DNA of 11,933 nucleotides from the UHGV virus genome UHGV-0293518. One strand, written 5' to 3'. The translations under genes were made by a program, and so were the position numbers. The notes under the pieces are model-generated. The model was given only the letters and a program-made list of their open reading frames with translations. It was not told the origin of the DNA and searched no databases. Source of the DNA: a virus. Shown piece by piece: positions 1 to 11,933 of the stretch (positions are counted from its first letter, which is position 1; each line of letters opens with the position of its first letter).

Positions 1-362
1 CTTAACTGATATCCCTTTTAACGGATAAAGGTATTCAAGCCTGACACATCATGCGCTGTATCGTCGCCGTATTCCCGTATTAACAGAGACCGTAGCCCGA
101 CGGGGAACTCCTTCTGCGCGAGTGTGCGGGAATAATCAAAAACGATGCACACCGGGTTTTTACCGCGTTTATGGTTCGCGGGTTTGTCCCTCATGCTCGC
201 CAGTCCTGTGCGGGGGTGGAAGAAACAGGACACTTACACTGATTCTTGTGGGCACGATGCTATGCCTTTCTGGATTATCCCGATGCCATTCATGCAAGGC
301 GTTGTATCAGACGTTCGTCAGAGCTGTCAGGCTGACGGGTCCTCCCGGTGGGGTGGCCTGCC

Positions 363-383
363 ACGGGGCGGGAGCGTCGCGGA
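363..383. promoter_or_regulatory. Candidate cos site (cosN-like terminase nicking region)
   Basis: ACGGGGCGG...TCGCGG at 363-382 resembles the lambda cosN region (ACG-GGGCGGCGACCT-CGCGGG) as I recall it, with flanks matching and the centre diverged. It sits about 170-190 bp upstream of the small terminase start, the same geometry as lambda cosN to Nu1. Exact nick positions are not determinable from sequence. Confidence 0.4.
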
Positions 384-420
384 AAAAGGCTAGTTTTTGA
401 AATTTCATTCGTCATCACCA

Positions 421-457
421 CCACTGTAATAGATTGATATTACAGTGGTTTTATTTT
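421..457. repeat. Perfect 10-bp inverted repeat (CCACTGTAAT / ATTACAGTGG) with 8-nt loop, followed by a T-rich run; possible cosB-like terminase binding element or terminator
   Basis: Read directly: left arm 421-430, loop 431-438, right arm 439-448, then TTTTATTTTTATGG. Lies between the candidate cosN and the small terminase start. Confidence 0.5.
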
Positions 458-551
458 TATGGTGTCGATTTTGGTTGTTTTTTGTTCATCACTAACACCG
501 TTTGCCTAAAGTTGTTCGCGAGATGCATGTTTAAAACATTCTGGAGCGGGT

Positions 552-1046
552 ATGGATCGAGAGTTAAAAAATCTGACGCTGAATATCAGTCAACTGGCGG
601 CACTGTCAGGTGTACATCGCCAGACTGCTGCGGCAAGGCTGCAAAATCTACCCGTTGCAGGGGGGCATGAAAGCAACCTCAAGCTTTATCGGGTGGTTGA
701 TATTGTGTCGGCATTTCTGGCATTGCCACCGCCGGTTGCAGAAGGCGAAATGGACGCGCATGAGCGCAAAGCCTGGTATCAGTCTGAACGTGAGCGTCTT
801 AAGTTCGAACAGGAAACGGCACAACTCATTCCGGCCAGTGATGTCAGACGGGAGTTTGCCATCTGGGCAAAAGCGGTCGTGCAGGTGCTGGAGACATTAC
901 CGGATATTCTGGAACGTGACTGCGGTCTGCAGCCTGCCGCTGTGAGCCGTGTTCAGTCCATTATTGATGATCTGCGCGATCAGATAGCCCTGCGGGTGAC
1001 TGAAGCAGGTGCGGATGATGAGGAGGAATTACAGCAGGAGGAGTAA
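552..1046 (+). CDS. Terminase small subunit (DNA-packaging protein, not the lambda Nu1 sequence family)
   Basis: 164-aa ORF directly upstream of and overlapping (TAATG) the large terminase gene. GGAG lies 6-9 nt before the ATG. Has an N-terminal helix-turn-helix-like segment (LNISQLAALSGVHRQTAAARL) and an acidic C-terminal tail (DDEEELQQEE). Assignment is by position and architecture. Confidence 0.75.
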   Translation: MDRELKNLTLNISQLAALSGVHRQTAAARLQNLPVAGGHESNLKLYRVVDIVSAFLALPPPVAEGEMDAHERKAWYQSERERLKFEQETAQLIPASDVRREFAIWAKAVVQVLETLPDILERDCGLQPAAVSRVQSIIDDLRDQIALRVTEAGADDEEELQQEE

Positions 1047-3154
1047 TGCTGAATCAGGAAACCGCAAAGGCAGCACGAACCGATTCAGGTTATATCCTTC
1101 GCGCACCGAGACGAATGCGGGTTGCTGATGCCGTTGCTCAGTATATGCGGGTGCCCATGGGGGCAGGGAACTCAGTCCCGTGGGATCCGCTGGTGGCACC
1201 GTATGTTATTGAGCCGATGAACTGCCTGGCCTCGCGTGAATACGACGCAGTGATATTTGTTGGCCCGGCACGAACCGGCAAGACTATCGGCCTGATTGAC
1301 GGCTGGGTGATTTACAACGTGATTTGCGATCCTGCTGATATGCTGATTATTCAGATGACGGAGGAAAAAGCCCGCGAACACTCCAAAAAACGACTCGCCA
1401 GAACGTTTCGCGTCAGCCCGGAAGTGGTCAGTCGCCTGAGTCCGAACAAAAATGACAACAACGTTTATGACAGAACATTCCTTGCTGGTAACTACCTGAA
1501 AATCGGCTGGCCGTCAGTCAATATCATGTCCTCATCAGATTATAAATGCGTCGCGCTGACGGATTATGACCGTTTTCCGGAAGATATTGATGGCGAGGGG
1601 GATGCTTTCTCTCTTGCCTCAAAACGTACCACAACATTTATGTCCAGTGGTATGACGCTGGTGGAGAGTTCCCCCGGCAGAGATGTGAAGGATGTGAAAT
1701 GGCGACGGACTTCACCGCATGAGGCTCCACCAACCACGGGGATACTGTCGCTCTATAACCGTGGCGATCGCCGTCGCTGGTACTGGCCCTGTCCACACTG
1801 TGGTGAGTATTTTCAGCCCTGCGGCGATGTGGTTGCTGGTTTCCGTGATATTGCCGATCCCGTGCTGGCAAGTGAGGCGGCTTATATTCAGTGTCCTTCC
1901 TGTTCAGGACGGATTATGCCTGAACAAAAACGTGAGCTGAACGGACGTGGGGTCTGGTTGCGGGATGGTGAATCCATCAATGCGGATGGCAGTCGTTATG
2001 GTGATCCCCGACGCTCACGTATTGCGTCATTCTGGATGGAGGGTCCGGCAGCTGCTTACCAGACACTCTCGCAACTCGTTTACAAACTGCTTACTGCAGA
2101 ACAGGAATACGAGACAACCGGAAGTGAAGAAACACTCAAGACGGTTATCAATACCGACTGGGGATTACCTTATCTTCCCCGCGCCAGCATGGAGCAACGA
2201 AAAAGTGAACTGCTTGAGCAGCGGGCAGAGCCAGTTCCTTCCCGCAGTGTGCCGGATGGCGTTAATTTTCTTGTGGCGACAGTGGATGTGCAGGCGGGAC
2301 GTCATCGCCGTTTTGTGGTTCAGGTAACGGGCTATGGCAGCCGTGGCGAACGCTGGATTATTGATCGTTACAACATCACGCAGTCATTGCGCGGTGACAG
2401 CGACGGGGAGAGCCAGCGAATTGATCCGGCCAGCTATCCGGAAGACTGGGATGTCCTGCTGACGGATGTTTTTCATAAAAGCTGGCCGCTGGCCTCCGAT
2501 CCTTCTCAACAAATGCGACTGATGGCAATGGCGGTGGACTCCGGCGGTGAAGACGGGGTCACTGATAATGCCTATAAATTCTGGCGTCGTTGCCGTCGTG
2601 ATGGCCTTGGTAAACGTATTTACCTGTTTAAGGGCGACAGCATCCGGCGCGCAAAACTGATCACCCGTACATTCCCTGATAACACCGGACGAACGGGCCG
2701 ACGGGCGCAGGCCGCAGGTGATGTGCCGCTCTGGCTTCTTCAGACGGATGCACTGAAAGACCGGGTGAATAACGCGTTATGGCGTGACTCGCCAGGTCCC
2801 GGCTATGTGCATTTCCCTGACTGGCTGGGGAGCTGGTTTTACGACGAACTGACGTATGAAGAGCGGAGCAGTGACGGGAAATGGAGTAAGCCGGGTCGCG
2901 GTGCCAACGAAGCTTTTGACCTGATGGTGTATGCCGAGGCTCTGGTCATTCTGCATGGATACGAAAAGATCCGCTGGCCGGATGCACCGGAGTGGGCGAG
3001 CCGGGAAACCTGGCTGGAGTGTGTCCCGGACAGTATCGAACCGTCACCCTCACCCTCACCGGAACCGGTATCCACGCCTGTTAAAAAACAAAAACGGAAG
3101 AAAACAGTAACTGACGATGTTAACCCCTGGCTGACTTCCGGAGGATGGTTATGA
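1046..3154 (+). CDS. A: Terminase large subunit, gpA family
   Basis: 702-aa ORF. Walker A P-loop GPARTGKT at 1262-1285. CPHC...CPSC zinc-ribbon-like motif at 1790-1906, analogous to lambda gpA CPHC. Start overlaps the small terminase stop and the stop overlaps the next gene start (ATGA). Confidence 0.9.
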   Translation: MLNQETAKAARTDSGYILRAPRRMRVADAVAQYMRVPMGAGNSVPWDPLVAPYVIEPMNCLASREYDAVIFVGPARTGKTIGLIDGWVIYNVICDPADMLIIQMTEEKAREHSKKRLARTFRVSPEVVSRLSPNKNDNNVYDRTFLAGNYLKIGWPSVNIMSSSDYKCVALTDYDRFPEDIDGEGDAFSLASKRTTTFMSSGMTLVESSPGRDVKDVKWRRTSPHEAPPTTGILSLYNRGDRRRWYWPCPHCGEYFQPCGDVVAGFRDIADPVLASEAAYIQCPSCSGRIMPEQKRELNGRGVWLRDGESINADGSRYGDPRRSRIASFWMEGPAAAYQTLSQLVYKLLTAEQEYETTGSEETLKTVINTDWGLPYLPRASMEQRKSELLEQRAEPVPSRSVPDGVNFLVATVDVQAGRHRRFVVQVTGYGSRGERWIIDRYNITQSLRGDSDGESQRIDPASYPEDWDVLLTDVFHKSWPLASDPSQQMRLMAMAVDSGGEDGVTDNAYKFWRRCRRDGLGKRIYLFKGDSIRRAKLITRTFPDNTGRTGRRAQAAGDVPLWLLQTDALKDRVNNALWRDSPGPGYVHFPDWLGSWFYDELTYEERSSDGKWSKPGRGANEAFDLMVYAEALVILHGYEKIRWPDAPEWASRETWLECVPDSIEPSPSPSPEPVSTPVKKQKRKKTVTDDVNPWLTSGGWL

Positions 3155-3363
3155 ACCAGAATGATATCGAAGCCATGATTCAGCGTTATACGGAAGCTGA
3201 AATGGCGGTGCTGGACGGAAAATCCGTCACCTTTAATGGTCAGCAGATGACCATGGAAAACTTATCTGAGATCCGGCAGGGACGGCAGGAGTGGGAGCGC
3301 CGCCTTGCGGCTCTGATTACACGACGACGGGGGCATCCCGGGTACCGGCTGGCGAGGTTCTGA
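3151..3363 (+). CDS. W: Head-tail joining protein, gpW-like
   Basis: About 70 aa, immediately after the large terminase as in lambda. C-terminus ITRRRGHPGY resembles the lambda gpW C-terminus (RRRGPAGFYV) as I recall it. Start at 3151 is preferred over 3145 because GGAGG at 3140-3144 is then 6 nt upstream. Confidence 0.7.
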   Translation: MNQNDIEAMIQRYTEAEMAVLDGKSVTFNGQQMTMENLSEIRQGRQEWERRLAALITRRRGHPGYRLARF

Positions 3364-4871
3364 TGGCAATTCTTGATGATGTGATTGGCGTTTTTTCACC
3401 AGGATGGAAAGCGGCAAGGCTGCGTTCCCGTGCGGTGATCCAGGCTTATGAGGCCGTAAAAACGACGCGGACACACAAAGCCCGGCGGGAGAACCGAACT
3501 GCCGACCAGTTAAGCCAGTACGGGGCCGTGTCGTTACGTGAGCAGGCCCGTTACCTTGATAACAACCACGATCTGGTTATTGGTGTATTTGACAAGCTGG
3601 AAGAACGGGTGGTGGGGAAAAACGGGATTATTGTCGAGCCACATCCGGTATTACGCAATGGGGCCATTGCCCGTGATCTGGCAGCGGAGATTCGCACCCG
3701 ATGGAGTGAATGGTCTGTCAGCCCGGAAGTCACCGGGCAGTTTACCCGTCCGATGCTGGAACGTCTGATGCTGCGTACCTGGCTGCGCGATGGTGAGGTG
3801 TTTGCCCAGATGGTTTCCGGGCGCATAAACAGCCTGACGCCTTCTGCCGGTGTTCATTTCTGGCTGGAGGCGCTCGAGCCGGACTTTATTCCCATGACCA
3901 GTGATGAGAGCAACAGGCTGAATCAGGGCGTGTTTGTTGATGACTGGGGGCGTCCCGAAAAATATCTGGTGTATAAAAGCCGTCCCGTATCCGGACGGCA
4001 GATGGAAACCAAAGAAGTGGATGCAGAGCGAATGCTGCATCTTAAATTTGTTCGCCGTCTGCACCAGATGCGCGGGACGTCTTTGTTGTCCGGTGTGCTG
4101 ATCCGCCTCAGTGCCCTGAAAGATTATGAAGATTATGAGCTGACTGCAGCAAGGATCGCCGCTGCTCTGGGGATGTACATCCGCAAAGGCGACGGGCAGA
4201 GCTATGAACCGGATGGTAATGGCAGCAAGGATAAGGAACGCGAGCTTACCATTCAGCCAGGCATTATTTACGATGATCTGAAACCCGGCGAAGAAATCGG
4301 AATGGTGAAGTCGGATCGCCCCAATCCTAACCTTGAAACTTTTCGTAATGGTCAGTTGCGTGCCGTGGCGGCGGGCAGTCGTCTGAGTTTTTCCAGTACA
4401 GCGCGCAACTATAACGGCACTTACAGCGCCCAGCGTCAGGAGCTGGTTGAATCTACTGATGGCTACCTGATCCTGCAGGACTGGTTTATTGGTGCCGTCA
4501 CCCGCCCGATGTATCGTGCATGGCTGAAACAGGCTGTGGCATCCGGTGTTATCAGGCTACCCCGCGATCTTGACCGTTCTTCACTGTATACCGCGGTGTA
4601 TTCCGGACCAGTGATGCCGTGGATTGACCCTGTTAAGGAGGCTGAGGCCTGGAAAATCCAGATTCGTGGTGGAGCGGCGACAGAATCAGACTGGGTACGT
4701 GCTGGTGGTCGTAATCCGGATGATGTCAAACGTCGGCGCAAGGCCGAAATTGATGAAAACCGCAAGCTGGATCTGGTATTTGATACCGATCCGGCCAGTG
4801 ATAAAGGAGGCAGTAGTGCCGCAACGAAACGACAGGAGCCGCAGCACACCGACGACCAGTCCGAAGATTAA
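3363..4871 (+). CDS. B: Portal protein, lambda gpB-like
   Basis: 502-aa ORF in the portal position after W. Start taken at ATG 3363 (MAILDDVIG...), which overlaps the W stop as TGATG and has GAGG upstream. The ORF-track start at 3291 is an in-frame upstream ATG inside W. Confidence 0.85.
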   Translation: MAILDDVIGVFSPGWKAARLRSRAVIQAYEAVKTTRTHKARRENRTADQLSQYGAVSLREQARYLDNNHDLVIGVFDKLEERVVGKNGIIVEPHPVLRNGAIARDLAAEIRTRWSEWSVSPEVTGQFTRPMLERLMLRTWLRDGEVFAQMVSGRINSLTPSAGVHFWLEALEPDFIPMTSDESNRLNQGVFVDDWGRPEKYLVYKSRPVSGRQMETKEVDAERMLHLKFVRRLHQMRGTSLLSGVLIRLSALKDYEDYELTAARIAAALGMYIRKGDGQSYEPDGNGSKDKERELTIQPGIIYDDLKPGEEIGMVKSDRPNPNLETFRNGQLRAVAAGSRLSFSSTARNYNGTYSAQRQELVESTDGYLILQDWFIGAVTRPMYRAWLKQAVASGVIRLPRDLDRSSLYTAVYSGPVMPWIDPVKEAEAWKIQIRGGAATESDWVRAGGRNPDDVKRRRKAEIDENRKLDLVFDTDPASDKGGSSAATKRQEPQHTDDQSED

Positions 4872-4884
4872 TTCCTGGTTCAGG

Positions 4885-5697
4885 ATGCAGGCTGGTCACC
4901 AGAGTGACGCGGATATTTATATTTATGACGAGATTGGTTTCTGGGGTGTTACAGCGAAGCAGTTTATCAGTGATCTGAATGCACTGGGCGATATCACCCA
5001 CATTAATCTCCATATCAATTCACCGGGTGGCGATGTCTTTGAAGGCATCGCCATTTTTAATGCGCTGAAAACACATGGTGCGTCCATTACCGTTTATGTC
5101 GACGGTGTGGCGGCGTCAATGGCGTCGGTCATTGCGATGGTGGGAAATCTGAACAGCCTTGATACCCGTATGGTGCCACAGGCCAGCGCATGGGCGATAA
5201 ACCGTGTGGCACAGAAAGCGGTCTCGGTTGCCACCCGGCAGGTTGCCGGGAATACCGTTGCGGGAGATAACCAGGTGAAAGGGATACCCCTGAAACTGGT
5301 ACGTCAGCGTGTCCGGGTGTTTAAAGCCAGTCCGTCAGGAAAAATGACGGCCAGGATCCGCGTTAACCGGGGCAATCTGCCTGCCATTAAGCTGGGGACC
5401 GCCCGGGTCAGACTGACCCGGCGTGGTGGAAAACTGCAGTACCGTGGCAGCGTGCTGAAGGTGGGTAAATATCTTTTCCGGGATGCGTTTATTCAGCAAC
5501 TGGCGAATGGTCGCTGGCATGTGATGCGGCGTATTGATGGCAAAAATCGTTACCCCATTGATGTGGTGAAAATCCCTCTGTCCGGACCGCTGACACAGGC
5601 ATTTGAAGATGCCCGCGACCGCATCATTGCTGCGGAAATGCCGAAACAGCTGGGGTATGCACTGAAACAACAACTGAGGTTATGGCTGACCCGATGA
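4885..5697 (+). CDS. Chimeric ORF: N-terminal fragment of ClpP-like prohead protease fused in frame to a gpZ-like tail completion protein (deletion remnant, probably non-functional as a protease)
   Basis: Residues 1-87 carry ClpP/S14-type prohead protease motifs (IYIYDEIG, INSPGGDVFEGIAIFNAL, GVAASMASVIAMVG). From about nt 5146 the sequence (NLNSLDTRMVPQASAWAINRV ... RIRVNRGNLPAIKLGTARV ... QQLANGRWHVMRRIDGKNRYPIDVVKIP ... LGYALKQQLRLW) follows lambda gpZ as I recall it. Ends with ATGA overlap onto U, as Z/U do in lambda. Start chosen at ATG 4885 just after the portal stop. Confidence 0.65.
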   Translation: MQAGHQSDADIYIYDEIGFWGVTAKQFISDLNALGDITHINLHINSPGGDVFEGIAIFNALKTHGASITVYVDGVAASMASVIAMVGNLNSLDTRMVPQASAWAINRVAQKAVSVATRQVAGNTVAGDNQVKGIPLKLVRQRVRVFKASPSGKMTARIRVNRGNLPAIKLGTARVRLTRRGGKLQYRGSVLKVGKYLFRDAFIQQLANGRWHVMRRIDGKNRYPIDVVKIPLSGPLTQAFEDARDRIIAAEMPKQLGYALKQQLRLWLTR

Positions 5698-6095
5698 ACC
5701 GACATACACAAATCCGCCAGGTCGTACTGGCACGCCTTCGGGAACAGTGTGGAGACAGCGCCACGTTTTTTGACGGGCTTCCGGCATTTGTTGATGCGCA
5801 GGAACTGCCTGCCGTGGCGGTGTGGCTGAGTGATGCTCAGTACACCGGAAAAATGACGGATGAAGATGACTGGCAGGCTGTTCTGCATATTGCTGTCTTC
5901 ATCCGGGCACAGGCACCGGATTCAGAGCTGGATATGTGGATGGAGAGCACCATTTTCCCGGCCCTGAATGATGTACCGGCACTTTCCGGACTCATCGACA
6001 CCCTGATCCCACTCGGTTTTAACTATCAACGTGATAATGAGATGGCCACCTGGGCGATGGCGGAAATCACGTACCAGATCACGTACACGAATTAA
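5694..6095 (+). CDS. U: Tail tube terminator protein, lambda gpU-like
   Basis: Strong similarity to lambda gpU as recalled (ATFFDG, ELPAVAV, DWQAVLHIAVF, DSELDMWMES, ALSGLI, ITYQITY). Start at ATG 5694 overlaps the preceding stop and matches the lambda N-terminus (MNRHTQIRQVVL vs MKHTELRAAVL). An alternative upstream ATG exists at 5682. Confidence 0.85.
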   Translation: MNRHTQIRQVVLARLREQCGDSATFFDGLPAFVDAQELPAVAVWLSDAQYTGKMTDEDDWQAVLHIAVFIRAQAPDSELDMWMESTIFPALNDVPALSGLIDTLIPLGFNYQRDNEMATWAMAEITYQITYTN

Positions 6096-6105
6096 GGAGG
6101 TGGCA

Positions 6106-6849
6106 ATGACCACACCAAATCCACTGGCAAAAACGAAAGGTGCGGGAACGACGTTCTGGATGTACACCGGCAAGGGCGATGCGTTTGCGAACCCTTTATC
6201 GGACACTGACTGGCTGCGTCTTGCGATGGTGAAGGATCTGCAGCCTGGCGAAATGACCGCTGATGCAGAAGATGACACTTATCTCGATGATGAAGATGCA
6301 GACTGGAAAACGACAACCCAGGGGCAGAAATCCGTCGGTGATACTTCGGCGACGCTGGCCTGGCGTCCGGGTGACAGCGGGCAGAAAAAACTGGTTCAGT
6401 TGTTCGACTCCGGTGAAGTCTGCGCGTTTCGTATCAAATATCCCAACGGTACTGTTGATGTTTTCCGTGGCTGGCTGAGTTCACTGGGTAAAACCATTGC
6501 CTCAAAAGACGTGATGACCCGCACAGTGAAAATCAGCGGTGTGGGGCGTCCGTATCTGGCAGAAGAAGGCACTGAAACCGTGGGCGTTACCGGGCTGACG
6601 GTGGCACCGGCATCTGCCAGTGTAAAAGTGGGAGCAACCACCACGCTGACCTTTACAGTAAAACCTGACGGAGCCAGTGACAAAGCGATCAGTGTGCATT
6701 CGACAGATCCACAGACTGCCACGGTGACCCTGAACGGGCTTGTGGCCACGGTGAAAGGCGTGAAGCAGGGCAGTGTCAGCATTGTGGGCATGACTTCTGA
6801 CGGCGATTTTGTGGCAGTGGCTACGGTGGCTGTCAGCGCCGCAGGTTAA
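6106..6849 (+). CDS. V: Major tail tube protein, lambda gpV-like, with C-terminal Ig-like (Big_2-type) domain
   Basis: N-terminal region is close to lambda gpV as recalled (KGAGTT, ANPLSD, YLDDEDADW, QGQKS, GDTS, TLAW, PNGTVDVFRGW, RTVK, VGRP). The C-terminal ~90 aa are Thr/Val/Ser-rich, typical of the Ig-like decoration domain. AGGAGG lies 6 nt before ATG 6106. Confidence 0.9.
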   Translation: MTTPNPLAKTKGAGTTFWMYTGKGDAFANPLSDTDWLRLAMVKDLQPGEMTADAEDDTYLDDEDADWKTTTQGQKSVGDTSATLAWRPGDSGQKKLVQLFDSGEVCAFRIKYPNGTVDVFRGWLSSLGKTIASKDVMTRTVKISGVGRPYLAEEGTETVGVTGLTVAPASASVKVGATTTLTFTVKPDGASDKAISVHSTDPQTATVTLNGLVATVKGVKQGSVSIVGMTSDGDFVAVATVAVSAAG

Positions 6850-6869
6850 CAGGACGATACTCATCATTT

Positions 6870-6893
6870 GCCCCGATTATCCGGGGCTTTTTT
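6870..6893 (+). terminator. Intrinsic-terminator-like hairpin between V and G (GCCCCG-ATTATC-CGGGGC followed by TTTTTT)
   Basis: Read directly: 6-bp GC-rich stem 6870-6875 / 6882-6887, 6-nt loop, U-run 6888-6893, about 20 nt after the V stop. Could attenuate transcription after the abundant major tail protein. Confidence 0.5.
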
Positions 6894-6906
6894 GCAGGTG
6901 GAGAAC

Positions 6907-7296
6907 ATGATGTTTCTGAAACAGGGCACGTTTAATTATGAAAAGCAGTCCGTGGTGCTCAGTGAGCTGTCCGGGCTGCAGAGAATTGAATATCTGGCGT
7001 TTGTTCAGCAGCGAACGGCAAAGTTTGATGCCGAAGAGGGAGAACTGCCGGAGGCTGAACGACAGATTGCTTTTCTGCGGATGGGGATGGATATCAATGC
7101 CTGGCTGGTTTCCCGCTCACTGTGGAATGCGGATCAGTCTAAGGATGTAGAGACGCTTTGCGCATCCGTTATTACAACATGGTCGTATGATGCCCTGGGT
7201 GCGGGGGCGGAGATGGTTCTGTCGCTGAGCGGTATGGGGACCATTGATAATGCCGGGGATGATGAGCATGAGGCGCTGACGCCGGAAAAGTCCTGA
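6907..7296 (+). CDS. G: Tail assembly chaperone, lambda gpG-like
   Basis: MFLK...LSELSGLQRIEYLAF...TTW...LSGM parallels lambda gpG as recalled. Start at ATG 6907 (or 6910) has a GGTGGAG Shine-Dalgarno upstream. The ORF-track start at 6868 lies inside the terminator hairpin and is unlikely. Confidence 0.85.
   Translation: MMFLKQGTFNYEKQSVVLSELSGLQRIEYLAFVQQRTAKFDAEEGELPEAERQIAFLRMGMDINAWLVSRSLWNADQSKDVETLCASVITTWSYDALGAGAEMVLSLSGMGTIDNAGDDEHEALTPEKS
7284..7290 (+). promoter_or_regulatory. Candidate -1 programmed ribosomal frameshift site for G-T fusion (GGAAAAG)
   Basis: The T reading frame is -1 relative to G and is open only from 7272. G stops at 7294-7296, so the shift must occur within 7272-7293. 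The only slippery-like sequence there is G GAA AAG (the lambda site is G GGA AAG), where the A-site Lys codon AAG can re-pair with AAA. Confidence 0.5.
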
Positions 7297-7634
7297 CGCG
7301 GGAAATGCAGTTTGTCATGCGGCTTGCCCGGGAGTTCCGGCGGGCAGACTGGCGGCGGATGCTGTCGGAAATGTCGGCCACTGAGCTTGGTGAGTGGGGC
7401 GATTATTTCCGGATGCAGAGCTTCAGTGATGTGTGGATGGATGCGCAGTTTGCCTCGCTGAAGGCATTGATCGTGAGAATGGTGTCCGGCAGTAGTGATG
7501 CTGCGGTGGCTGATTTCAGCCTTTTACCGGAAGAGAACGGGATACCGGAGCGAACGGACGAAGAACTGATGCATCTTGGGGAAGGTATTTCCGGAGGTGT
7601 GCGTTATGGACCAGATAGCCAACCTGGTCATTGA
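7290..7634 (+). CDS. T: Tail assembly protein gpT-like, expressed as a G-T fusion by -1 frameshift (T-frame portion)
   Basis: The -1 frame downstream of G encodes ...MRLAREFRRADWRRML...GEGISGGVRYGP, resembling lambda gpT as recalled (MRLAREFRRPDWRAML ... GIAGGVRYG). There is no convincing independent start or Shine-Dalgarno, which fits frameshift-dependent expression as in lambda. The 3' end overlaps the H start. Confidence 0.7.
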   Translation, partial: VLTREMQFVMRLAREFRRADWRRMLSEMSATELGEWGDYFRMQSFSDVWMDAQFASLKALIVRMVSGSSDAAVADFSLLPEENGIPERTDEELMHLGEGISGGVRYGPDSQPGH

Positions 7635-10563
7635 TTTGGGGATTGATGCGGCAGAGTTTAAAAATGAAATCCCCCGTATCAAAAACCTTCTGAATGGTGC
7701 AGCCAGCGATGCAGAACGGTCTTCTGCCCGTATGCAGCGTTTTATGGAGCGTCAGACTCAGGCCGCCCGGCAGACAACGCAGGCGGCTTCTTCGGCTGCA
7801 ACAGCCGCATCCGTCCATGCGCAGACGGTGGAGAAGAACGCACAGGCTCATGAACGCATGGCCCGCGAGGTGGAGAAAACCCGCCAGCGCATGGAGGCGC
7901 TGAGCCAGAAAATGCGCGAGGAACAGGCGCAGGCCATGGCTCTGGCGGAGGCTCAGGATAAAGCAGCTGCTGCGTTTTATCGTCAGATTGACAGTGTGAA
8001 ACAGGCCAGTGCGGGGCTGCAGGAATTACAGCGTATTCAGCAGCAGATCCGACAGGCCAGAAACAGTGGCGGGATTGGTCAGCAGGATTATCTGGCGCTG
8101 ATTTCTGAGGTTACGGCGAAAACCCGTGTTCTTACGCAGGCTGAGGAAGAGTCTACCCGACAGAAAGTGGCGTTTATCCGTCAGCTTAAAGAGCAGGCAA
8201 CCCGCCAGAATCTTTCTTCTTCTGAGTTGCTTCGTGCCAGGGCTGCCCAGCTGGGGGTAAGCAGTGCTGCAGAAGTGTATATCCGCAAAATGGAGCAGGC
8301 AGGAAAAGCCACGCATTCGCTGGGTCTGAAAAGTGCAGCAGCCCGCCAGGAGATAGGCGTTCTGATAGGTGAACTGGCCCGTGGCAATTTAGGAGCGCTG
8401 AGGGGATCCGGGATAACGCTGGCTAACCGTGCCGGATGGATAGACACACTGATGTCACCGAAAGGCATGATGCTGGGCGGGGTTATTGGCGGTATTGCCG
8501 CGGCCGTCTATGGTCTGGGTAAAGCCTGGTATGACGGTCAGAAGGAGGGGGAAGAATTTAACCGCCAGCTGTCACTGACGGGGCATTATGCCGGAGTCAC
8601 TGCCGGGCAGCTGTGGACGCTCAGTCGTGCTATTTCCGGGAATGGTATCACGCAACATGCTGCAGCCGGTGCGCTGGCTCAGGTGGTGGGGAGTGGTGCA
8701 TTTCGTGGAAACGATATCGGTATGGTGGCGAGAGCTGCCGCACAGATGGAGCGATCGGTTGGCCAGTCGGTCAGCGATACCATAAATCAGTTTAAGCGGC
8801 TGAAGGATGATCCTGTAAATGCCGCGAAGGCTCTGGACAATGAGCTGCATTTTCTTACTGCCACTCAGCTTGAGCAGATACGCGTCCTTGGGGATCAGGG
8901 GCGGTCCAGTGATGCTGCACGGATAGCCATGTCTGCACTGGCAGAGGAAACCGGTCGGCGTACTGCGGATATTGATAATAACCTCAATGCGCTGGGCAGT
9001 ACGCTGAAGTATCTGTCTGATTTATGGAGTCGTTTCTGGGATGCGGCCATGAATATTGGTCGTGAAGACTCGCTGGATGAACAGATTGCCGCTTTACAGG
9101 AGAAAGTGTCGCGGGCGAAAAGACTCCCCTGGACGGCATCATCTTCTCAGGTTGAATACGATCAGCAGCGTCTTAACGATCTTCAGGAGAAAAAACGCCA
9201 GAAGGATTTGCAGGATGCAAAAGAGCAGGCAGAGCGGAATTATCAGGAGCAACAGAAACGCCGTAATGCTGAAAATGCTGCACTGAACCGGATGAATGAA
9301 ACGGAAGCTGCACGACATCAGCGTGAAATTGCGCGTATTAATGCCATGCAGTACGCCGATCAGGCTGTCAGGGATGCGGCGATACAACGTGAAAATGAAC
9401 GTTACGAGAAAGCCCTGGCATCCGGTAAGAAAAAAACACGCGAAACCCGTAATGATGAGGCCACCCGGTTATTGCTGCAGTACAGTCAGCAACAGGCACA
9501 GGTGGAAGGACAGATTGCTGCTGCCAGACAGTCAGCAGGCATTGCCACGGAAAGGATGACAGAAGCGCATAAACAGCTTCTGGCTCTGCAGCAGCGCATC
9601 AGCGACCTGGACGGGAAAAAACTGACGGCAGATGAAAAGAGTGTGCTGGCCCGTAAAGATGAACTGATTCAGGCACTGACGCTGCTGGATGTAAAACAGC
9701 AGGAGCTTCAGAAACAGACGGCACTCAACGAGCTGAAGAAAAAAACAATTCAGCTGACCAGTCAACTGGCTGAAGAAGAGCGCGCTCAGCGTCAGCAACA
9801 TGACCTGGATATCGCCACGGTGGGTATGGGTGATCAGCAGCGACAGCGATATCAGGTACAACTGAGTCTTCGCCAGAAATACCAGCAACAGCTGGAGCAG
9901 TTGAGGCGGGATAGTGAGCAGAAAGGGACATATAACACGGATGACTACAGAAAGGCCGAGCAGGCGCTGACGGAGAGCCTGAACCGACAACTGAATGAGA
10001 ATCGCCGTTACTGGCAACAGCTTGAAGTTGTGCAGGGTAACTGGAAAAACGGAGTCCTGCGTGCATTTCAGGATTTTACCGTGGATGCAGATAATACGGC
10101 AGAAACAGCAGAACAGGTGTTCTCGTCAGCCTTCAGCAACATGGGAAATGGCCTGGCAACTTTTGTCACTACCGGCAAACTCAATTTCAAATCCTTCACC
10201 TCTTCTGTGCTGTCAGATATGGCGAAAATCCTGGCGCAGGCAACCATGATGAAATCGATAAAAGGGATTGGCAGTGTATCAGAGCCGAAAGTGGTGACAG
10301 TGAAGCTGGGCGATGGTTATGAACAGCGTCGTGCGGCGGGACTGAATAACCAGTTGTCGACTTACAGCGTGACGATACGTGTTCGTAAATGTGAACACCC
10401 ATCTTTAAAAGCCTTTCTGGAACGGCACGGTGGCGTCCGTGCATTTCAGTGGACGCCACCTTATGACTGGAAACCGATCAGGGTGGTTTGTCGTAAATGG
10501 TCGGCAAGCGTGGGGGCGCTGTGGGTAACCATAACGGCAGATTTTGAACAGGTCGTGGCATAG
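7606..10563 (+). CDS. H: Tape measure protein (gpH-like) fused in frame to the C-terminal ~95 aa of minor tail protein gpM-like (H-M chimeric ORF)
   Basis: N-terminus MDQIANLVIDLGIDAAEF parallels lambda gpH (MAEPVGDLVVDLSLDAARF) as recalled. The body is a long Q/A/E/R-rich coiled-coil-like region with a Gly-rich hydrophobic patch (MMLGGVIGGIAAAVYGLGKAWYDG). From about nt 10276 the sequence (VSEPKVVTVKLGDGYEQRRAAGLNNQLSTYSVT...FLERHGGVRAFQWTPPYDWKPIRVVCRKWS...ADFEQVVA) follows lambda gpM. GGAGGTG lies 8 nt before ATG 7606. No separate M gene exists before L. Confidence 0.8.
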   Translation: MDQIANLVIDLGIDAAEFKNEIPRIKNLLNGAASDAERSSARMQRFMERQTQAARQTTQAASSAATAASVHAQTVEKNAQAHERMAREVEKTRQRMEALSQKMREEQAQAMALAEAQDKAAAAFYRQIDSVKQASAGLQELQRIQQQIRQARNSGGIGQQDYLALISEVTAKTRVLTQAEEESTRQKVAFIRQLKEQATRQNLSSSELLRARAAQLGVSSAAEVYIRKMEQAGKATHSLGLKSAAARQEIGVLIGELARGNLGALRGSGITLANRAGWIDTLMSPKGMMLGGVIGGIAAAVYGLGKAWYDGQKEGEEFNRQLSLTGHYAGVTAGQLWTLSRAISGNGITQHAAAGALAQVVGSGAFRGNDIGMVARAAAQMERSVGQSVSDTINQFKRLKDDPVNAAKALDNELHFLTATQLEQIRVLGDQGRSSDAARIAMSALAEETGRRTADIDNNLNALGSTLKYLSDLWSRFWDAAMNIGREDSLDEQIAALQEKVSRAKRLPWTASSSQVEYDQQRLNDLQEKKRQKDLQDAKEQAERNYQEQQKRRNAENAALNRMNETEAARHQREIARINAMQYADQAVRDAAIQRENERYEKALASGKKKTRETRNDEATRLLLQYSQQQAQVEGQIAAARQSAGIATERMTEAHKQLLALQQRISDLDGKKLTADEKSVLARKDELIQALTLLDVKQQELQKQTALNELKKKTIQLTSQLAEEERAQRQQHDLDIATVGMGDQQRQRYQVQLSLRQKYQQQLEQLRRDSEQKGTYNTDDYRKAEQALTESLNRQLNENRRYWQQLEVVQGNWKNGVLRAFQDFTVDADNTAETAEQVFSSAFSNMGNGLATFVTTGKLNFKSFTSSVLSDMAKILAQATMMKSIKGIGSVSEPKVVTVKLGDGYEQRRAAGLNNQLSTYSVTIRVRKCEHPSLKAFLERHGGVRAFQWTPPYDWKPIRVVCRKWSASVGALWVTITADFEQVVA

Positions 10564-10572
10564 GAGGCTCTG

Positions 10573-11271
10573 ATGCAGGATATTCCACAGGAAACACATC
10601 ATGAGACGACACGCCTCACTCAGTCAGCCCAGGTGGTGCTCTGGGAAATCGATCTGACAGAGGTCGGTGGTGAACGTTATTTTTTCTGTAATGAGCAGAA
10701 CGAAAAAGGTGAGCCGGTTACCTGGCAGGGGCGGCAGTATCAGGCATACCCCATTCAGGGGACAGGATTTGAACTGAACGGCAAGGGCAGTGCTGCCCGT
10801 CCGACACTGACGGTTTCTAACCTGCACGGTATGGTCACCGGGATGGCGGAAGATCTGCAGAGTCTGGTCGGCGGAACGGTGGTCCGGCGTAAGGTTTACG
10901 CCCGTTTTCTGGATGCGGTGAACTTCGTCAACGGAAACAGTGACGCCGACCCGGAGCAGGAGGTGATCAGCCGCTGGCGCATCGAGCAGTGCAGCGAACT
11001 GAGCGCGGTCAGTGCCTCTTTTGTACTGGCCACGCCGACGGAAACGGACGGCGCTGTTTTTCCGGGACGTATCATGCTGGCCAACACCTGCACCTGGACC
11101 TATCGCGGCGATGAGTGCGGTTATCACGGTCCGGCGGTCGCGGATGAATATGACCAGCCAACGTCCGATATCACGAAGGATAAATGCAGCAAATGCCTGA
11201 GCGGTTGTAAGTTCCGCAATAACGTCGGCAACTTTGGCGGCTTCCTTTCCATTAACAAACTTTCGCAGTAA
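10573..11271 (+). CDS. L: Minor tail protein, lambda gpL-like (C-terminal Cys cluster)
   Basis: 232 aa, the same length as lambda gpL, in the correct position. C-terminal cysteine cluster (CTWTYRGDECGYHG ... KCSKCLSGCK) at 11089-11208 is consistent with the Fe-S-binding region described for gpL. AGGAGG lies 5 nt before the ATG. Confidence 0.9.
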   Translation: MQDIPQETHHETTRLTQSAQVVLWEIDLTEVGGERYFFCNEQNEKGEPVTWQGRQYQAYPIQGTGFELNGKGSAARPTLTVSNLHGMVTGMAEDLQSLVGGTVVRRKVYARFLDAVNFVNGNSDADPEQEVISRWRIEQCSELSAVSASFVLATPTETDGAVFPGRIMLANTCTWTYRGDECGYHGPAVADEYDQPTSDITKDKCSKCLSGCKFRNNVGNFGGFLSINKLSQ

Positions 11272-11276
11272 ATCCC

Positions 11277-11933
11277 ATGACAGAAACAGAATCAGCGATT
11301 CTGGCGCACGCCCGGCGATGTGCGCCAGCGGAGTCGTGCGGCTTCGTGGTGAGAACGCCGGAGGGAGAAAGATATTTTCCCTGCGTGAATATCTCCGGTG
11401 AGCCGGAGGAGTATTTCCGGATGTCGCCGGAGGACTGGCTGCGGGCAGAAATGCAGGGTGAGATTGTGGCGCTGGTCCACAGCCACCCCGGTGGTCTGCC
11501 CTGGCTGAGTGAGGCTGACCGGCGGCTGCAGGTGCAGAGTGATTTGCCGTGGTGGCTGGTCTGCCGGGGTGAGATTCATAAATTCCGCTGTGTGCCGCAT
11601 CTCACCGGGCGGCGCTTTGAGCACGGGGTGACGGACTGTTACACGCTGTTCCGGGATGCTTACCATCTGGCGGGGATTGAGATGCCGGATTTTCATCGCG
11701 GGGATGACTGGTGGCGTAACGGTCAGAATCTCTATCTGGATAATCTGGAGGCCACAGGGCTGTATCAGGTGCCGTTGTCAGCGGCGCAGCCGGGCGATGT
11801 GCTGCTGTGCTGTTTTGGTTCATCGGTGCCGAATCATGCCGCTATTTACTGCGGCGACGGCGAGCTGCTGCACCATATTCCTGAACAACTGAGCAAACGA
11901 GAGAGGTATACAGGTCTGCCAGCAAACAGTACC
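11277..11933 (+). CDS. K: Tail assembly protein, lambda gpK-like (MPN/JAMM plus NlpC/P60 domains), 3' end truncated by the window
   Basis: My translation from ATG 11277 (MTETESAILAHARRCAPAESCGFVV...VALVHSHPGGLPWLSEADRRLQVQSDLPWWLVCRG...GVTDCYTLFRDAYHLAG...NHAAIYCGDGELLHHIPEQLSKRERYT) is nearly identical to lambda gpK as I recall it. The ORF is open to the last base of the window. It is absent from the ORF track, presumably because no stop falls inside the window. Confidence 0.9.
   Translation, partial: MTETESAILAHARRCAPAESCGFVVRTPEGERYFPCVNISGEPEEYFRMSPEDWLRAEMQGEIVALVHSHPGGLPWLSEADRRLQVQSDLPWWLVCRGEIHKFRCVPHLTGRRFEHGVTDCYTLFRDAYHLAGIEMPDFHRGDDWWRNGQNLYLDNLEATGLYQVPLSAAQPGDVLLCCFGSSVPNHAAIYCGDGELLHHIPEQLSKRERYTGLPANST

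What the first reader, a model, noticed from the sequence alone, without database searches (positions are those of the whole stretch)
10200..10563. Tape measure protein H fused in frame to minor tail protein M
The 985-aa H ORF ends with ~95 aa that match the gpM family (GDGY...FEQVV), and L follows 10 bp later with no separate M gene. The H-like part stops matching lambda H after the KSIKGIGS segment, so the H C-terminal region and about 15-20 N-terminal residues of M are absent. The junction at about nt 10270-10278 is in frame. It is the second in-frame deletion in the same gene cluster.
Basis: partly seen in the sequence, partly recalled or inferred. Interest (0 to 1): 0.75.

Follow-up and report, generated by a model that had tools for sequence, protein, structure and literature searches.

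The report
Deletion-made tape-measure/M fusion in decayed prophage
A 437-base deletion in a lambda-like E. coli prophage joined the tail tape-measure gene in frame to the next tail gene, leaving what is most likely a dead remnant in a prophage that has lost much else.

Summary
One ORF (ATG 7606 to stop 10563, 985 aa) consists of tape-measure protein H residues 1-891 joined to minor tail protein M residues 15-109, and L starts 9 nt later.

Intact relatives keep H (1016-1021 aa) and M (109 aa) as separate genes. These include phage mEp460 and many E. coli prophages, which are 98.8-100% identical across H. The window lacks 437 bp. The junction (10276-10278) is a 3-nt microhomology, GTA.

The deletion removes the H C-terminus, which docks in the lambda tail tip, together with M's start codon and first 14 residues. 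The same cluster carries two more in-frame deletion fusions: protease::Z (2414 bp) and K::Tfa (8769 bp). The major capsid domain, I, J and the tail fibre genes are gone.

The best reading is a recently and heavily deleted prophage with a non-functional chimeric ORF, an ordinary kind of event. The exact junction occurs in no public collection I searched, so an artefact cannot be excluded without reads.

One point is unexpected. Other independent public contigs reuse the same breakpoints with different partners, and most junctions centre on a TA dinucleotide. This hints at sequence-directed deletion hotspots of unknown cause.

The parts
7606..10563 (+). Chimeric H::M ORF (985 aa plus stop)
   Evidence: ORF list; Pfam TMP_2, TMP_4, Tape_meas_lam_C and Phage_min_tail in one frame; lambda gpH and gpM both align to it.
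7606..10278 (+). H-derived part, tape measure residues 1-891
   Evidence: 100.000% identical to the H gene of the E. coli ET729 prophage over window 5146-10278. The start matches the annotated mEp460 H start.
10276..10278 (+). Deletion junction, GTA microhomology (H codon 891 = M codon 15, both Val)
   Evidence: Three-way alignment of the window with the left and right reference flanks; 437 bp missing.
10276..10563 (+). M-derived part, residues 15-109 plus stop. M's start codon and first 14 codons are absent.
   Evidence: Pfam profile positions 13-108 of 108. Lambda gpM 10-108.
10573..11271 (+). Intact minor tail protein L gene
   Evidence: Phage_tail_L, E=4.3e-99, full profile. Spacing as in the intact phage.
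4816..5697 (+). First deletion fusion: prohead protease N-terminus (about 110 aa) joined in frame to tail protein Z residues 10-192. Junction 5146-5147 (AA); 2414 bp missing.
   Evidence: Removes the rest of the protease/major capsid fusion gene, the cement-like gene, the Gifsy-2-like gene and the Z start (gene map).
11277..11933 (+). Third deletion fusion: K (C40 peptidase) codon 212 joined in frame to tail fibre assembly protein Tfa codon 36. Junction 11908-11911 (ATAC); 8769 bp missing. The ORF runs off the window.
   Evidence: Removes the K C-terminus, I, J, lom, stf and the tfa start (gene map).
9825..10278 (+). 454-bp H segment (H residues about 741-891) whose two ends are recurrent breakpoints in other public contigs
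   Evidence: L013, L029, L030 and L031 each keep L012 29230/29233-29686/29690 flanked by different DNA.

Best explanation
The window is the late (head and tail) gene cluster of a lambda-like, mEp460/cdtI-type E. coli prophage that has lost 11.6 kb through three internal deletions.

The H::M ORF is the scar of the middle deletion. A 437-bp stretch was lost by illegitimate recombination between two GTA trinucleotides, one at H codon 891 and one at M codon 15. The stretch covered the last 130 codons of the tape measure gene H, its stop codon, and the ribosome site, start codon and first 14 codons of M. H and M sit in frames offset by 2, and 437 = 2 mod 3, so the product reads through as one 985-aa chimera ending at M's stop. 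L follows at its normal distance.

Shown: the deletion, its exact ends, the microhomology, the frames, and the absence of this arrangement in intact relatives.

Inferred: the chimera cannot build tails. It lacks the H C-terminal helix that in lambda sits as a trimeric coiled coil on the gpI plug inside the tip. It also lacks the first strand of M, which in lambda forms a free hexameric ring. In addition, the major capsid domain, I, J and part of K are gone.

Also inferred: the events are recent, because the surviving DNA is 99.9-100% identical to intact prophages from 5146 onward. They may have arisen together by serial template switching during replication or break repair.
For: - Collinear blocks against mEp460 with 2414-bp and 437-bp gaps.
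- The same gaps against the E. coli ET729 prophage, where window 5146-10278 is 100.000% identical and 10276-11911 is 99.94% identical.
- A third gap of 8769 bp.
- Microhomologies of 2, 3 and 4 nt with no filler DNA. Random junctions reach 2 nt or more only 16% of the time.
- No longer repeat flanks the H-M deletion.
- Intact relatives have H of 1016-1021 aa and a separate M of 109 aa in 10 of 10 loci with identical TerL, in the 14 full-coverage phage records, and in every listed row of the 1,738 E. coli genomes with a full-coverage match.
- The deleted H part contains the segment homologous to lambda gpH 818-842, seen in tail-tip structures 8IYK and 9E7M. Its role, and that of gpM as a hexameric distal tail protein with all 109 residues ordered, are described in PMC10721106.
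- Many other deletion-made chimeric ORFs of this prophage family exist in public assemblies (Z::H, V::M, TerL::M, protease::J and others). One, TerL35::M15, is seen in at least 13 contigs from several samples. This kind of scar is therefore real and common.
Against: - The exact junction is a singleton. It has no match in 5,426 complete E. coli genomes, phage records, plasmids, GTDB species representatives, IMG/VR or JGI metagenomes. The fusion protein is not on record. No reads are available, so a chimeric molecule or an assembly error cannot be excluded.
- All three fusions are in frame (chance 1/27), which a purely random decay model does not predict.
- The breakpoints coincide with sites reused in other contigs. 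Something more specific than random microhomology joining is therefore acting.
- Non-function of the chimera is inferred from lambda structures, not tested.
Confidence: 0.75

Rival explanations
1. Sequencing or assembly artefact: the three junctions come from chimeric molecules or mis-joins, and the real genome carries an intact prophage.
For: None of the three junctions is found anywhere else. The flanking DNA is identical to intact prophages, as expected if nothing had really been lost. The window ends 22 nt after the third junction.
Against: - Junction overlaps are only 2-4 nt, with no shared repeat of k-mer length, so a repeat collapse or de Bruijn mis-join is not possible.
- Three collinear same-strand deletions in one contig would need three chimeras to dominate coverage.
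- The same type of junction at the same sites occurs in independent public assemblies. One lineage recurs in at least 13 contigs from different samples.
Confidence: 0.12
2. Selected, functional chimeras: the in-frame fusions (protease::Z, H::M, K::Tfa) are kept because they are expressed from the late operon. They might poison assembly of related superinfecting or co-resident phages, or keep translation running to downstream genes.
For: Three of three fusions are in frame (p=0.037). L and the other surviving genes are intact. A second, independent in-frame H891::M1 fusion exists (P0001).
Against: - In a comparable multi-deleted contig only 1 of 5 junctions is in frame.
- Nothing selectable lies downstream of the last fusion in the intact prophage.
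- The fusions are singletons rather than spreading alleles.
- No expression or phenotype data exist.
Confidence: 0.05
3. Directed deletion: the breakpoints are cleavage or pause sites of a specific enzyme or structure. Candidates are a type II topoisomerase such as gyrase acting by subunit exchange, or a TA-specific transposase or recombinase acting on pseudo-sites. The H::M fusion would then be one stereotyped product.
For: - H codon 891 is the left breakpoint in five independent contigs with five different partners.
- H codon 741 is a right breakpoint in four contigs.
- M codon 15 is used in two lineages.
- Protease codon 111 is used in at least four.
- Ten of 14 resolved junctions have a microhomology containing TA, against 3.2% expected.
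- Flanks are enriched for C at +2 and G at +4.
- The H741 site (GGTATGGG) matches the published gyrase consensus core in the 99th percentile.
Against: - Overall similarity of the used sites to the gyrase core is not significant (p=0.067), and H891 and M15 score as ordinary.
- The hairpin next to H891 is weak (z=-1.6).
- The protease-111 hotspot has no TA, and one of its junctions rests on a 12-nt near-repeat.
- The contigs were found through protein searches centred on these regions, so sampling is not unbiased.
Confidence: 0.25
4. Natural gene architecture: some phages of this group encode a tape measure protein with a C-terminal M domain.
For: One other protein in 5.8 billion carries both Tape_meas_lam_C and Phage_min_tail (P0001).
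Against: That protein lies in a contig with five deletions and is itself a 392-bp deletion product. Every intact relative examined has separate H and M.
Confidence: 0.01

Closest known systems
Phage mEp460 (JQ182728) H and M genes, and the near-identical prophages of many E. coli strains (for example ET729, next to prfC)
   Same: Same gene order. 98.8% nucleotide identity for mEp460 and 100% for ET729 across the H part. Same H start, M stop and M-to-L spacing.
   Different: They have H of 1021 aa ending in TAA that overlaps the M start (TAATG), and a separate 109-aa M. The window lacks the 437 bp between H codon 891 and M codon 15.
Lambda gpH (tape measure) and gpM (distal tail protein) as seen in tail-tip structures 8IYK, 8K35 and 9E7M
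   Same: The fusion aligns to gpH 127-707 and gpM 10-108.
   Different: In lambda, gpH ends in a coiled coil (818-842) held by the gpI trimer, and gpM is a free hexameric ring with all 109 residues ordered (PMC10721106). The chimera lacks that helix and the M N-terminus, and ties a trimeric lumen protein to a hexameric wall protein.
Cryptic or defective lambdoid prophages of E. coli (Rac, Qin, DLP12, e14) and their truncated tail-gene remnants
   Same: Loss of essential head and tail genes by internal deletions while neighbouring genes survive. Rac also keeps a tape-measure remnant, ynaA.
   Different: Those remnants are old and diverged, and ynaA shares no DNA similarity with this H. Here the surviving DNA is still up to 100% identical to intact prophages, so the deletions are recent.
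Other public deletion chimeras of the same prophage family: P0001 (H891::M1, Logan SRR17276524) and P0010 (TerL35::M15, human gut metagenomes)
   Same: P0001 uses the same left breakpoint and the same GTA microhomology. P0010 uses the same right breakpoint within 1 nt. Both are in frame.
   Different: Different partner sites (deletions of 392 bp and 11,970 bp) and different prophage alleles, so these are independent events and not the same allele.

Membership tests
Lambda-type tape measure protein (gpH family) | TMP_2, TMP_4 and Tape_meas_lam_C domains in order | tested here: met
   Pfam E-values 2.6e-49, 1e-16 and 4.5e-22. Aligns to lambda gpH 127-707.
Lambda-type tape measure protein (gpH family) | C-terminal region with the helix that docks on gpI in the tail tip (lambda 818-842) | tested here: not met
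   Residues 892-1021 of the intact protein are deleted. They include the stretch matching the 32-residue gpH chain of 9E7M.
gpM / Phage_min_tail (distal tail protein) | Full-length domain of about 109 aa | tested here: not met
   Only profile positions 13-108 of 108 are present. M residues 1-14 are deleted.
gpM / Phage_min_tail (distal tail protein) | Independent gene with its own start codon just after the H stop | tested here: not met
   The TAATG overlap and the M start are inside the missing 437 bp.
Defective (decaying) lambdoid prophage | Collinear with a functional phage but missing essential morphogenesis genes | tested here: met
   Three gaps totalling 11,620 bp remove the major capsid domain, head-tail joining genes, I, J, lom and stf.
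Defective (decaying) lambdoid prophage | Integrated in a bacterial chromosome between att sites | not testable with these tools
   The window holds only late genes. Its source contig was not found.
Microhomology-mediated illegitimate recombination | A few identical bases at both breakpoints, no long repeat, no inserted DNA | tested here: met
   AA, GTA and ATAC at the three junctions. No longer direct repeat spans the deletion ends; the longest pairs in the region (up to 13 nt, imperfect) lie elsewhere.
Programmed translational fusion (as in lambda G-T) | Both separate and fused products encoded by intact DNA through a slippery site | tested here: not met
   The fusion is at the DNA level. Intact relatives carry 437 bp more and a normal H stop.
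Gyrase-mediated illegitimate recombination | Breakpoints at gyrase cleavage sites | tested here: inconclusive
   Match counts to the published consensus core: H741 is in the 99th percentile, H891 and M15 are ordinary, and overall p=0.067. No cleavage data for this DNA.

The most novel reading that the evidence does not exclude
The H::M fusion may be one product of a stereotyped, sequence-directed process that dismantles mEp460-like prophages at a small set of nucleotide-precise, mostly TA-centred hotspots: protease codon 111, H codons 741 and 891, the H stop/M start, and M codon 15. The cause could be an enzyme such as a type II topoisomerase or a TA-specific recombinase or transposase, or strong replication pause sites. 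In-frame chimeras would sometimes be retained.
Probability: 0.25. Interest if true: 0.6.

Novelty: new member of a known kind. Interest (0 to 1): 0.25.

Why it matters
The fusion itself matters little. It is a fresh scar of prophage decay and should be annotated as a pseudogene-like chimera, not as a new tape measure architecture.

What could matter is the pattern around it. Three clean in-frame deletions sit in otherwise near-identical DNA. Their ends are reused in unrelated public assemblies, and the junctions almost always centre on TA. If that pattern survives an unbiased survey, prophage inactivation in E. coli would be partly sequence-directed rather than random. That would bear on how quickly prophages are disarmed and on which remnants persist.

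Tried and rejected
- **Natural H-M architecture.** Rejected: all intact relatives have separate genes.
- **Repeat-collapse misassembly.** Rejected: only 2-4 nt are shared at the junctions and no longer repeat spans the deletion ends.
- **Tracing the source.** Exact-junction scans of GTDB genomes, IMG/VR, JGI metagenomes, E. coli complete genomes, phages and plasmids found nothing. Exact look-ups of the fusion proteins with three alternative starts also found nothing.
- **Degenerate scan for other partners of the H891 end.** It gave only chance hits in unrelated taxa.
- **An old, widespread H remnant explaining the shared breakpoints.** K-12 Rac ynaA is unrelated at the DNA level. Only 31 of 1,862 E. 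coli records with a match (20,395 searched) have a partial match as their best hit.
- **A hairpin or larger fold juxtaposing the deletion ends.** A weak 7-bp hairpin starts right after H891 (z=-1.6). Other sites are unremarkable.
- **Gyrase consensus match.** Inconclusive.
- **A protease::Z fusion elsewhere.** None found, although the protease-111 breakpoint is reused.
- **Chi-like and XerC-arm resemblances at single sites.** I noticed these by eye and did not pursue them. They fit one site each and were found post hoc.
Full report
**What is in the window.** The 11,933-base window is the late-gene cluster of a lambda-like phage. In order, it carries:
- a Nu1-like small terminase gene (552-1046);
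- large terminase (1046-3154);
- a small head-tail gene and the portal gene;
- an ORF with an N-terminal ClpP-protease domain and a C-terminal tail protein Z domain;
- U, the major tail protein V, the chaperones G and T;
- a long tape-measure ORF, then L, then K running off the end.

**Checking the observation.** The long ORF is open from 7576 to 10563. From ATG 7606, which corresponds to the annotated H start of phage mEp460, it is 985 aa. Pfam finds TMP_2, TMP_4 and Tape_meas_lam_C, followed directly by Phage_min_tail. That last match covers residues 900-994 of the 995-aa version, profile positions 13-108 of 108, E=2.8e-33. Against solved structures, residues 296-891 align to lambda gpH 127-707 and residues 886-984 align to lambda gpM 10-108. 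L begins at 10573, and no separate M gene exists.

**What was lost.** Phage mEp460 matches the region at 99.6% identity, but in two pieces that span 1538 bases for 1101 bases of query. Whole-window alignment to mEp460 gives three collinear blocks. Alignment to the prophage of E. coli ET729 gives the same blocks:
- window 5146-10278 is 100.000% identical;
- window 10276-11911 is 99.94% identical;
- window 1-5147 is 99.1% identical.

At the H-M junction the window reads ...GGCAGTGTA|TCAGAGCC.... The left reference flank continues GTA|CTGGGATT, and the right flank is preceded by ...AATGTGGTA|. So 437 bp are missing and GTA is shared by both ends (window 10276-10278). Intact H is 1021 aa and M is 109 aa. 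The chimera keeps H 1-891 and M 15-109, with the valine codon shared. M lies in the +2 frame relative to H and 437 = 2 mod 3, which is why the fusion reads through. No longer repeat brackets the lost stretch.

**Is this a natural architecture?** No. Ten loci from different assemblies encode a large terminase identical to the window's. All of them carry a 675-aa protease/capsid gene, a 192-aa Z, an H of 1016-1021 aa and a separate 109-aa M. The 14 phage records with full coverage show the same layout, as do the listed E. coli genomes out of 1,738 with a full-coverage match.

The exact junction is absent from:
- 5,426 complete E. coli genomes;
- 50,697 phage records and 72,556 plasmids;
- GTDB species representatives, IMG/VR and JGI metagenomes.

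The fusion protein is not on record with either start.

**Context: two more deletions.**
- At 5146-5147 (AA shared), 2414 bp are missing. The protease N-terminus is joined in frame to Z codon 10. The rest of the protease/major capsid gene and two head-completion genes are lost.
- At 11908-11911 (ATAC shared), 8769 bp are missing. K codon 212 is joined in frame to codon 36 of the tail fibre assembly gene. I, J, lom and the side tail fibre gene are lost.

Neither junction is found elsewhere. In total 11,620 bp are gone. All three fusions are in frame, which has a chance probability of 1/27. Microhomologies of 2, 3 and 4 nt exceed the random expectation, where 16% of random junctions reach 2 nt or more.

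**Likely consequence.** In lambda, gpM is the distal tail protein. It forms a hexameric ring in which all 109 residues are ordered. The gpH C-terminus (residues 818-842) forms a trimeric coiled coil held by the gpI plug in the tip lumen (PMC10721106). The homologous segment of the intact H (residues 986-1016) matches the gpH chain of 9E7M and lies inside the deletion. The chimera therefore lacks the tip-docking end of H and the first strand of M, and it ties a trimeric lumen protein to a hexameric wall protein. With the major capsid domain, I, J and part of K also missing, the element cannot make particles. I infer that the ORF is a non-functional scar. This was not tested.

**How it arose.** The clean junctions, the short shared bases, the same-strand collinear order and the near-perfect identity of the surviving DNA point to recent illegitimate recombination. 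The three events may belong to one episode of serial template switching, but that step is inference. An artefact cannot be excluded without reads. It is unlikely, because 2-4 shared bases cannot cause a graph mis-join, and because the same kind of junction is seen in independent public data.

**An unexpected pattern.** A protein search with the 200 residues around the junction returned many other chimeric ORFs of this prophage family.
- One, P0001, is a second H::M fusion. H ends at the same codon 891 but is joined to M codon 1, again through GTA, with 392 bp missing. Its contig has five deletions.
- Three further contigs from other samples keep the same 454-bp H segment. It ends at ET729 coordinates 29230/29233 and 29686/29687 and is flanked by different DNA in each contig.
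- The M codon 15 breakpoint is reused, within 1 nt, by a TerL35::M15 fusion present in at least 13 contigs from gut metagenomes and other runs.
- The protease codon 111 breakpoint is reused in at least three other contigs with other partners.

Of 14 junctions resolved at the nucleotide level, 10 have a microhomology containing TA. The expectation is 3.2% (binomial p about 6e-14, or about 1e-9 after removing reused sites). The flanks of the used TA sites are enriched for C at +2 and G at +4 relative to all TA sites.

I tested two explanations for this pattern:
- A hairpin begins right after H codon 891, but it is weak.
- The published gyrase consensus core (CGGCGGTATGGGGATACCGCCG, supplement of PMC6379681) matches the H741 site very well. 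It does not match the set as a whole (p=0.067).

The cause remains open. These contigs were found through searches centred on these regions, so the sampling is biased. In another multi-deleted contig only one of five junctions is in frame, so reading-frame preservation is not general.

**Verdict.** The feature is a deletion-made chimeric ORF in a freshly and heavily deleted prophage. It is a new instance of a well-known kind of event and of low interest in itself. The reuse of breakpoints and the TA-centred junctions deserve a systematic survey.

Noticed in passing
window 4816-5697 (junction 5146-5147): Protease::Z in-frame fusion made by a 2414-bp deletion with AA microhomology. It removes the major capsid domain and the head-completion genes. 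The junction is absent from 5,426 complete E. coli genomes, IMG/VR and JGI metagenomes.
   Followed up: yes
window 11277-11933 (junction 11908-11911): K::Tfa in-frame fusion made by an 8769-bp deletion with ATAC microhomology. It removes I, J, lom and stf.
   Followed up: yes
window 9825 and 10278; L013 10000-10457; L029 9739-10192; L030 6763-7217; L031 10180-10637: The same 454-bp piece of H survives as an isolated block in four other public contigs, flanked by different DNA each time. Both of its ends are therefore recurrent breakpoints.
   Followed up: partly
window 10276-10278; L021 10105-10107 (also L022-L028): A TerL codon 35::M codon 15 in-frame fusion (11,970-bp deletion) uses the same M breakpoint within 1 nt. 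It recurs in at least 13 contigs from several gut metagenome and SRA samples, so it is a circulating defective prophage lineage.
   Followed up: partly
window 5146-5147; L033, L034 and L036, near locus coordinates 3327-3342: Protease codon 111 is a left breakpoint in at least three other contigs, joined to the capsid domain, gpI or gpJ. One junction rests on a 12-nt near-repeat (AACCCGGTCATT / AACCAGGTCATT).
   Followed up: partly
junctions in the window, L013, L021, L029, L030 and L031: Ten of 14 resolved deletion junctions have a microhomology containing the rare dinucleotide TA (expected 3.2%), often as GGTA or GTAY. The cause is unknown.
   Followed up: partly
L013 (Logan SRR17276524 contig), 8544-11343: A related prophage with five internal deletions within 3 kb of contig, leaving pieces of 458-998 bp. 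Only one junction is in frame.
   Followed up: partly
window 1046-3154: The large terminase ORF is 702 aa here but 700 aa as annotated in ET729. The first block of the window (1-5147) is only 99.1% identical to ET729 with two gaps, against 100% further on. This suggests a mosaic boundary near the first deletion.
   Followed up: no
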